Shown here in pieces: positions 46,163 through 46,277 of a stretch of DNA of 64,000 nt. Origin of the DNA: Escherichia coli (GTDB taxonomy: Bacteria; Pseudomonadota; Gammaproteobacteria; Enterobacterales; Enterobacteriaceae); the NCBI RefSeq assembly GCF_045037415.1, contig NZ_CP173438.1; one strand, 5' to 3'. Numbering within the stretch: the first letter of the stretch is position 1; the number at the start of each line of letters is the position of its first letter. Below the pieces are notes generated by a model that did no database searches, was not told the DNA's origin, and saw only the letters and a program-made list of their open reading frames with translations. Made by a program: the position numbers and the translations under genes.

Positions 46163-46191
46163 TTGCTTGTTTTTAAAGAAAAAGAAACAGC

Positions 46192-46208
46192 GGCCGGTCC
46201 GCTGTTTC
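46192..46208. promoter_or_regulatory. FadR operator-like site (GGCCGGTCCGCTGTTTC) upstream of fadD
   Basis: matches FadR consensus pattern nnCTGGTCnGACnnGTT loosely; overlaps the yeaY terminator hairpin. Confidence 0.45.
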
Positions 46209-46277
46209 TGCATTCTTACGGTAAAGATAAAAATAAATAGTGACGCGCTTCGCAACCTTTTCCTTGGGTAATTATCA

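What the first reader, a model, noticed from the sequence alone, without database searches (positions are those of the whole stretch)
46183..46210. FadR-like site embedded in the yeaY terminator hairpin
The yeaY terminator-like hairpin (GAAACAGCG-GCCGGTC-CGCTGTTTC) overlaps a sequence resembling a FadR half-operator upstream of fadD, so one element may serve as both terminator and distal operator.
Basis: partly seen in the sequence, partly recalled or inferred. Interest (0 to 1): 0.2.

Follow-up and report, generated by a model that had tools for sequence, protein, structure and literature searches.

The report
yeaY hairpin overlapping known FadR site
The hairpin after yeaY is real and sits on the already published weak second FadR site of the E. 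coli fadD promoter, but this strain carries a change in the site's core, so only the hairpin looks selected and the finding is ordinary.

Summary
Observation confirmed. An 11-bp-stem, 5-nt-loop hairpin lies at 46183-46209, 20 nt after the yeaY stop. It is far stronger than shuffled sequence.

The window is E. coli, of the allele type carried by CFT073 and ST131 strains. Bases 46192-46208 are the published distal FadR site of the fadD promoter (OD2, "site 2", about -115..-99). The published K-12 EMSA probe for that site maps to 46184-46216 with one mismatch. The FadR reading is therefore already known, not new.

Three results limit the "one element, two jobs" idea:
- The mismatch is T->C (46195) in the TGGT core. 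The site scores 4.6 bits here, and 312 window positions score as well. The K-12 allele scores 8.3 bits. The C allele is in 1023 of 5426 complete E. coli genomes.
- Across Enterobacteriaceae the stem is kept, with compensatory changes, while the loop that carries the FadR core varies freely. The proximal site OD1 (46278-46294) is conserved in 41 of 43 genomes.
- In Escherichia the U-tract on the yeaY strand is weak, and K-12 Term-seq lists no yeaY 3' end.

Best reading: a conserved terminator-type hairpin that in Escherichia happens to carry a weak, dispensable FadR half-site. Low interest.

The parts
45581..46162 (+). yeaY CDS (Slp-family lipoprotein), the upstream gene whose transcript would contain the hairpin
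   Evidence: ORF list. 100% identity to the RefSeq-annotated yeaY of E. coli SK1144.
46183..46209 (+). Perfect 11-bp-stem, 5-nt-loop hairpin, 20 nt after the yeaY stop. It is orthologous to intrinsic terminators in other Enterobacteriaceae. Its + strand tail, GCATTCTT, is U-poor.
   Evidence: Folding. Stem 97.8% paired with 3 compensatory pairs in 25 distinct sequences. One of 8 such hairpins in the window against 0.3 expected. The tool's scan calls it terminator-like only on the - strand.
46192..46208 (+). Position of the published fadD FadR site 2 (OD2; -115..-99 relative to the inferred start site). It reads GGCCGGTCCGCTGTTTC here and GGCTGGTCCGCTGTTTC in K-12. It occupies the last two 5'-arm bases (46192-46193), the loop (46194-46198) and most of the 3' arm of the hairpin.
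   Evidence: The published EMSA probe maps here with 1 mismatch. PWM score is 4.6 bits here and 8.3 bits for the K-12 allele. Published as more than 10-fold weaker than site 1.
46195..46195 (+). T->C polymorphism in the TGGT core of OD2; it lies in the hairpin loop, so the stem is unaffected
   Evidence: Comparison of window and K-12 sequence. C allele in 1023 and T allele in 4393 of 5426 complete E. coli genomes. Carriers include CFT073 and O25b:H4-ST131 strains.
46221..46268 (+). Region matching the published fadD CRP-site EMSA probe (class I CRP activator site)
   Evidence: Probe from PMC3460868 Table 2 maps with 1 mismatch.
46278..46294 (+). fadD FadR site 1 (OD1), AGCTGGTAAGATGAGTT, at -29..-13; the main operator
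   Evidence: Top-scoring FadR PWM hit in the whole window at 15.5 bits. The published probe maps to 46268-46303 with 1 mismatch. A site of at least 10 bits sits at -82..-95 from the fadD start in 41 of 43 Enterobacterales loci.
46307..46307 (+). Inferred fadD transcription start, 60 bp upstream of the TTG start codon
   Evidence: The published distance of 60 bp (PMC3460868) applied to the TTG at 46367. Inferred, not measured in this strain.
46367..48052 (+). [quoted passage not shown]
   Evidence: RefSeq annotation of the identical sequence. The N-terminus reads (M)[12 protein letters not shown] in the sequence; the first codon is TTG.

Best explanation
The element is first of all a conserved terminator-type RNA hairpin at the 3' end of yeaY. 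In the Escherichia lineage, its loop and 3' arm (plus two 5'-arm bases) happen to spell a weak, one-sided FadR site: the published fadD operator OD2, or site 2. The two signals act on different molecules. The hairpin forms in the nascent yeaY (or tsaB-yeaY) transcript and ends or stabilises it. FadR, if it binds at all, binds the duplex DNA. Real FadR control of fadD runs through OD1 (46278-46294), which overlaps the -10 region. In this strain OD2 has lost the T of its TGGT core, so it is probably even weaker than the already weak K-12 site and contributes little or nothing. Shown here: the hairpin, its covariation, the match to the published probe, the poor motif score, the polymorphism, and the conservation of OD1. 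Inferred: reduced FadR affinity of the C allele, terminator activity in vivo, and the absence of selection on OD2.
For: The hairpin is strong and non-random. The stem stays paired in 97.8% of cells, 3 pairs show compensatory changes, and 0 of 500 shuffles reach the observed covariation, while the loop columns vary: CTGGT, CCGGT, CTTGT, CTCGT, CGTGT, CTCAG, CTAAG, ACTAT and others. More distant genera (Yersinia, Serratia, Pantoea, Erwinia, Pectobacterium) have unrelated hairpins with T-runs at the same place after yeaY. By a d'Aubenton-Carafa-type score, 31 of 43 loci are terminator-like on the yeaY strand. OD2 coincides with the published probe and is reported as more than 10-fold weaker than site 1. 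A 2022 review calls its position at -100 surprising for a repressor and notes that no in vivo test has been done. PWM scores are 4.6 bits for the window allele (312 equal or better positions in 64 kb) and 8.3 bits for the K-12 allele (42 positions), against 15.5 bits for OD1, the best in the window. The T->C change hits the TGGTN3ACCA core and a position invariant in all 7 published E. coli sites used. It is carried by 19% of complete E. coli genomes. CTGGT occurs in the loop only in K-12-type E. coli, E. albertii and one Pluralibacter MAG.
Against: FadR binding to OD2 in K-12 is experimental (DNase I footprint and EMSA, released by acyl-CoA), so the site is not imaginary. No binding data exist for the C allele. 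The PWM rests on only 6 sites. On the yeaY strand the Escherichia hairpin lacks a good U-tract: the tool's scan calls it only on the - strand and the d-score is -15.5. K-12 Term-seq lists no yeaY 3' end in three conditions, so terminator function in E. coli is itself unproven. Feng & Cronan state that the fadD FadR sites are 'largely conserved' in Citrobacter, Klebsiella and Enterobacter.
Confidence: 0.75

Rival explanations
1. Genuine dual-use element. OD2 is a functional auxiliary FadR operator in this strain too. It would cooperate with OD1 (centres 86 bp apart, about 8.2 helical turns) or with the adjacent ArcA site, while the same bases encode the yeaY terminator.
For: The K-12 site is footprinted, shifts in EMSA and is released by acyl-CoA. 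fadD and fadL are the only fad promoters with two FadR sites. The left half-site is perfect in 81% of E. coli genomes and in E. albertii. The spacing is roughly in helical phase (coordinates).
Against: The core T->C change in this strain brings the score to background. The loop is not conserved between genera. The site is more than 10-fold weaker, oddly placed and untested in vivo. To my knowledge FadR is a dimer with no reported looping.
Confidence: 0.12
2. In Escherichia the hairpin no longer works as the yeaY terminator. It would be a decayed relic or an mRNA 3'-end stabiliser, or it would terminate antisense or divergent transcripts on the - strand, where it has a canonical T-run.
For: Only the - strand form passes the terminator scan (tail TTTTTCTTTAA). 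The d-score is +24.9 on the - strand and -15.5 on the + strand in Escherichia, and is also negative in Citrobacter. No yeaY 3' end appears in K-12 Term-seq.
Against: The scan found no - strand promoter-like site downstream of the hairpin, and no 3' end is listed on the other strand either between 1888017 and 1893787. The stem is still perfectly maintained in all Escherichia examined. The partial U-tract UUUCU lies within the base of the stem, which is typical of bidirectional terminators. Term-seq may simply miss a poorly expressed gene.
Confidence: 0.25
3. The FadR resemblance is pure coincidence and irrelevant even in K-12. OD2 would be an in vitro artefact of high protein concentration on a probe that carries one good half-site.
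For: The K-12 allele scores only 8.3 bits, with 42 equal or better positions in 64 kb, so about 0.12 are expected in the intergenic region. Consensus-type matches in the window are at the chance level, 77 against 60 +/- 10. The EMSA probe is self-complementary, which complicates affinity estimates (inference).
Against: Two independent methods, footprint and EMSA, gave specific binding that acyl-CoA reverses.
Confidence: 0.3

Closest known systems
fadD promoter FadR operator OD2 / 'site 2' of E. coli K-12 (footprint by Black et al. 1992, as cited in PMC3460868; EMSA by Feng & Cronan 2012)
   Same: Same locus and same 17 bp (-115..-99). 32 of the 33 probe bases are identical. The partners are the same: OD1, the CRP site, and a start site 60 bp upstream of the TTG.
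   Different: This strain has C instead of T at the first base of the TGGT core (46195). The two FadR papers I searched for these words (PMC3460868, PMC9329746) do not mention that the site lies in the yeaY hairpin: 'terminator' and 'yeaY' occur 0 times.
Rho-independent (intrinsic) terminators at gene 3' ends, including bidirectional ones
   Same: A GC-rich perfect stem-loop 20 nt after a stop codon. The stem covaries. Orthologous hairpins in Enterobacter, Lelliottia, Cedecea and others carry T7 tails.
   Different: In Escherichia and Citrobacter the tail on the coding strand is U-poor (GCAUUCUU), and only the opposite strand has a proper T-run. No mapped 3' end was available.
fadL promoter with two FadR sites
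   Same: It is the only other fad promoter with two FadR sites.
   Different: The fadL sites are 8 bp apart, have equal affinity and overlap the promoter. The fadD sites are about 69 bp apart and unequal, and the distal one sits inside the neighbouring gene's terminator hairpin.

Membership tests
E. coli FadR operator (17-bp pseudo-palindrome aaCTGGTCnGACC(T/A)Gtt, core TGGTN3ACCA) | Sequence match to the consensus or PWM clearly above background | tested here: not met
   The leave-one-out PWM from 6 published sites gives 4.6 bits, and 312 of 127,968 window positions score as well. There are 5 mismatches in the 12 specified core positions (my count from the sequence), so the scan allowing up to 3 mismatches misses it. 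The K-12 allele scores 8.3 bits, which is marginal.
E. coli FadR operator (17-bp pseudo-palindrome aaCTGGTCnGACC(T/A)Gtt, core TGGTN3ACCA) | Positional identity with an experimentally bound site (footprint or EMSA) | tested here: met
   The published site-2 EMSA probe maps to 46184-46216 with 1 mismatch. The coordinates -115..-99 follow from a start site 60 bp upstream of the TTG.
E. coli FadR operator (17-bp pseudo-palindrome aaCTGGTCnGACC(T/A)Gtt, core TGGTN3ACCA) | Intact TGGT half-site core | tested here: not met
   The window reads CGGT at 46195-46198. C-T-G at positions 3-5 is invariant in the 7 published sites, and the literature core is TGGTN3ACCA.
E. coli FadR operator (17-bp pseudo-palindrome aaCTGGTCnGACC(T/A)Gtt, core TGGTN3ACCA) | Conservation of the core bases in orthologous promoters | tested here: not met
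   CTGGT is present in only 4 of 26 aligned Enterobacteriaceae sequences, and the loop columns vary. OD1, by contrast, is kept in 41 of 43 loci.
E. coli FadR operator (17-bp pseudo-palindrome aaCTGGTCnGACC(T/A)Gtt, core TGGTN3ACCA) | Acyl-CoA-sensitive FadR binding to this allele, and an effect on fadD transcription | not testable with these tools
   This needs EMSA or ITC and reporter fusions. The review notes that no in vivo test exists even for the K-12 site.
Intrinsic (Rho-independent) terminator | Stable GC-rich stem-loop shortly after the stop codon | tested here: met
   11 bp stem with 6 GC pairs, -17.5 to -18.2 kcal/mol, z about -4, 20 nt after the TAA.
Intrinsic (Rho-independent) terminator | U-tract immediately 3' of the stem on the transcribed strand | tested here: not met
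   The + strand tail is GCATTCTT. The scan reports the hairpin only on the - strand. The d-score is -15.5 on the + strand and +24.9 on the - strand (the formula is recalled from d'Aubenton-Carafa 1990). Orthologues in most other genera do have the T-run.
Intrinsic (Rho-independent) terminator | Stem maintained by compensatory substitutions across species | tested here: met
   97.8% of cells are paired, 3 pairs change on both sides, the covariation score is 0.158 against 0.081 +/- 0.012 in shuffles (0 of 500 reach it), and slid controls pair in 40-66% of cells.
Intrinsic (Rho-independent) terminator | RNA 3' end mapped at the site | tested here: inconclusive
   The MG1655 Term-seq tables (three conditions) contain no yeaY entry and no 3' end between 1888017 and 1893787. 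Expression may be too low. No other dataset was available as text.

The most novel reading that the evidence does not exclude
FadR bound at OD2 sits directly on the DNA encoding a weakened terminator. It could act as a fatty-acid-responsive roadblock or termination aid that decides whether tsaB-yeaY transcripts read through into fadD. The T->C core variant, carried by about 19% of sequenced E. coli including CFT073- and ST131-type strains, would then rewire fadD insulation in that lineage.
Probability: 0.05. Interest if true: 0.45.

Novelty: already known. Interest (0 to 1): 0.15.

Why it matters
It matters little. The distal FadR site of fadD has been in the literature since the 1990s, and terminator hairpins after genes are routine.

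Two small points add something:
- What looks like conservation of fadD site 2 between genera is explained by the yeaY hairpin stem, not by the FadR core bases.
- A common E. coli lineage naturally carries a core mutation in that site. This offers a ready-made test of the open question raised in the 2022 review, namely whether the -100 site does anything in vivo.

Tried and rejected
- **Rfam scan of 44000-50000 and 46050-46400.** Only sroD (48011-48096) passes its threshold. A weak - strand match to Yersinia sRNA Ysr190 (26.3 bits against a gathering score of 66) covers the hairpin. I rejected it because the alignment does not use the hairpin pairing and Ysr190 is absent from the Yersinia yeaY-fadD loci.
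- **Experimental 3' ends or operon maps for yeaY.** Adams 2021 Term-seq has no yeaY entry. For four other papers the supplements were either not held as text or held no mention of the genes.
- **Consensus scan CTGGTCNGACCWG with up to 3 mismatches.** It gives 77 hits against 60 +/- 10 expected, so it is uninformative on its own. It finds OD1 but not OD2.
- **A larger FadR site set.** The Feng & Cronan 2010 paper is not held, so the PWM rests on 6 sites.
- **A - strand transcript that would use the good - strand T-run.** I found no promoter-like site and no mapped 3' end.
- **Salmonella and Klebsiella.** They were not among the 80 loci returned, so the published claim of conservation in Klebsiella could not be checked directly.

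Full report
**Observation**

Folding adds the A46183-T46209 pair and the G46193-C46199 pair. The result is a perfect 11-bp stem with the 5-nt loop CCGGU.
- On the + strand the energy is -18.2 kcal/mol (z = -3.7). On the - strand it is -17.5 kcal/mol (z = -4.3). None of 200 dinucleotide shuffles folded as well.
- The window holds only eight perfect hairpins with a stem of at least 10 bp and a 3-8 nt loop. First-order Markov simulated sequences give 0.3.
- By the RefSeq annotation of an identical genome, all eight lie within about 60 nt downstream of a stop codon.

The hairpin is real, non-random, and belongs to the gene-end class.

**Context**

The 840 bp around the site are 100% identical to E. 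coli SK1144 and match 5425 of 5426 complete E. coli genomes. On the + strand the genes run:
- yoaA (42878-44788)
- tsaB (44846-45541)
- yeaY (45581-46162)
- fadD (TTG start at 46367, ending at 48052)
- rnd

This is the reverse complement of the K-12 order. The hairpin starts 20 nt after the yeaY TAA, inside the 204-bp yeaY-fadD spacer.

**Comparison with published fadD data**

Feng & Cronan 2012 (PMC3460868) report the following:
- The fadD start site is 60 bp upstream of the start codon.
- There are two FadR sites about 68 bp apart.
- Site 2 binds FadR more than 10-fold more weakly than site 1.
- Acyl-CoA releases FadR from both sites.

Their EMSA probes map onto the window as follows.

| Probe | Window position | Mismatches |
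|---|---|---|
| FadR site 2 (GAAACAGCGGCTGGTCCGCTGTTTCTGCATTCT) | 46184-46216 | 1 |
| FadR site 1 | 46268-46303 | 1 |
| CRP | 46221-46268 | 1 |

With the start site placed at 46307, OD1 (46278-46294) spans -29..-13 and OD2 (46192-46208) spans -115..-99. These are the numbers I recall from Black et al. 1992, which I could not re-read.

The "FadR-like site" is therefore the known distal operator, and it does lie in the hairpin. It covers the last two bases of the 5' arm (46192-46193), the loop and most of the 3' arm. Neither of the two FadR papers I searched for these words (PMC3460868, PMC9329746) mentions a terminator or yeaY. A 2022 review (PMC9329746) calls the -100 position "surprising if it is to act as a repressor" and notes that no in vivo test has been done.

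**Motif score**

I built a PWM from six published E. coli FadR sites (fadL1, fadL2, fadD1, fadBA, fabA, fabB), leaving OD2 out.

| Site | Score (bits) | Window positions scoring as well |
|---|---|---|
| OD1 | 15.5 | best in the window |
| OD2, K-12 allele | 8.3 | 42 |
| OD2, window allele | 4.6 | 312 of 127,968 |

For the window allele, about one chance hit of that quality is expected in the 204-bp spacer. A consensus scan with CTGGTCNGACCWG and up to 3 mismatches finds OD1 but not OD2. Its total of 77 hits is close to the 60 +/- 10 expected by chance.

The left half-site of K-12 OD2 is perfect (CTGGTC) and the right half is poor, so "half-operator" is an apt description.

**The polymorphism**

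The single difference from K-12 is T->C at 46195.
- It changes TGGT to CGGT.
- TGGTN3ACCA is the literature core for FadR.
- C-T-G at positions 3-5 is invariant in the seven published sites.
- The base lies in the hairpin loop, so the RNA structure is untouched.

I counted alleles with 45-nt queries centred on the SNP, which megablast can seed only on the matching allele. The C allele is in 1023 complete E. coli genomes and the T allele in 4393, out of 5426. C carriers include CFT073, EC958 and other O25b:H4-ST131 strains, A0 34/86 and an APEC O2:K1:H5 strain. From my own knowledge these are phylogroup B2. E. albertii has T, so C is probably the derived state.

**Cross-species comparison**

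A scan of one genome per species with the FadD N-terminus returned 80 loci. yeaY lies directly upstream of fadD in 43 of them.
- **OD1.** A site of at least 10 bits sits 82-95 bp upstream of the fadD start in 41 of the 43 loci, usually as AACTGGTACGCTGAGTT.
- **The hairpin stem.** It is homologous in 24 Enterobacteriaceae loci. With the window and K-12 that makes 26 aligned sequences, 25 of them distinct. The stem is paired in 97.8% of cells, and three pairs change on both sides (for example A-U to G-C in Enterobacter and Lelliottia). The covariation score is 0.158 against 0.081 +/- 0.012 in shuffles (0 of 500 reach it), and slid controls pair in only 40-66% of cells.
- **The loop.** It carries the FadR core and is free to vary: CTGGT (K-12-type E. 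coli, E. albertii, one Pluralibacter MAG), CCGGT, CTTGT, CTCGT, CGTGT, CTCAG, CTTAG, CTAAG, ACTAT, CTAGT, CGGGT, CCTGG and CTAGC.
- **More distant genera.** They have unrelated hairpins with T-runs at the same place.

Feng & Cronan state that the fadD FadR sites are "largely conserved" in Citrobacter, Klebsiella and Enterobacter. For site 2, that apparent conservation is explained better by the hairpin stem than by FadR recognition.

**Is it a terminator in E. coli?**

The consensus scan reports the hairpin only on the - strand, where the tail is TTTTTCTTTAA. On the yeaY strand the tail is GCATTCTT.

I also used a d'Aubenton-Carafa-type score. The formula is recalled from memory and the energies are from ViennaRNA.
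- Escherichia scores -15.5 on the + strand and +24.9 on the - strand.
- Citrobacter is also negative on the + strand.
- 31 of the 43 loci are positive on the + strand, many with T7 tails.

The MG1655 Term-seq tables for three conditions contain no yeaY entry and no 3' end on either strand between 1888017 and 1893787. The element is therefore orthologous to clear terminators. Its efficiency on the yeaY strand in E. coli is unknown and may be reduced.

**Mechanism**

The most likely reading (confidence about 0.75) has three parts.
- The hairpin acts in RNA, as the terminator or 3'-end structure of yeaY.
- FadR controls fadD through OD1.
- OD2 is a weak, lineage-specific by-product of the loop sequence, further degraded in this strain.

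The rivals are a truly functional auxiliary operator (0.12), a hairpin that is no longer a + strand terminator (0.25, which is compatible with the main reading), and OD2 as an in vitro curiosity even in K-12 (0.3, also compatible). The most novel reading not excluded is a FadR roadblock or termination aid at a weakened terminator, which would couple read-through into fadD to fatty-acid status (about 0.05).

**Novelty and verdict**

The FadR site is already published, and terminator hairpins are routine. The overlap, the polymorphism in CFT073/ST131-type strains and the "stem conserved, core not" pattern are minor additions. Interest is low (0.15).

Noticed in passing
window 14361-14377: TTGTGGTACGACCAGTC is a near-perfect GntR/FadR-type palindrome with the same TGGTACGACCA core as the fadB operator. 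It lies 28 bp upstream of the yebV start codon (yebV is on the - strand) and downstream of rsmF. It is the third-best locus for the symmetric FadR PWM, at 12.1 bits. It is not in the published PdhR gSELEX list.
   Followed up: partly
window 49342-49665: Next to rnd there are only short pseudogene fragments of a tartrate dehydrogenase and a LysR regulator before leuE. K-12 carries yeaX immediately next to rnd (the genes beyond were not checked). This looks like a lineage-specific deletion.
   Followed up: no
window 48011-48096: The sroD sRNA (Rfam RF00370, 115 bits) overlaps the 3' end of fadD. K-12 Term-seq lists strong 3' ends there.
   Followed up: partly
window 46286: The central base of the main fadD operator OD1 is A here and T in K-12. 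This is the unspecified 'n' position of the FadR consensus, so the change is probably neutral. The E. coli genome at L003 combines this A with the K-12-type T in OD2.
   Followed up: no
window 21328-21353: A perfect 10-bp-stem hairpin lies 52 nt after the proQ stop but already inside the annotated prc coding sequence.
   Followed up: no
window 1986-1998: ATGGTCAGACCTG on the - strand has 1 mismatch to the FadR core consensus. It lies inside the edd coding sequence and is probably chance.
   Followed up: no
window 49256-49291: A 14-bp-stem hairpin (CCGAAGCCGGACTG...CAGTCCGGCTTCGG) lies directly after the rnd stop codon. It has the longest perfect stem in the window.
   Followed up: no
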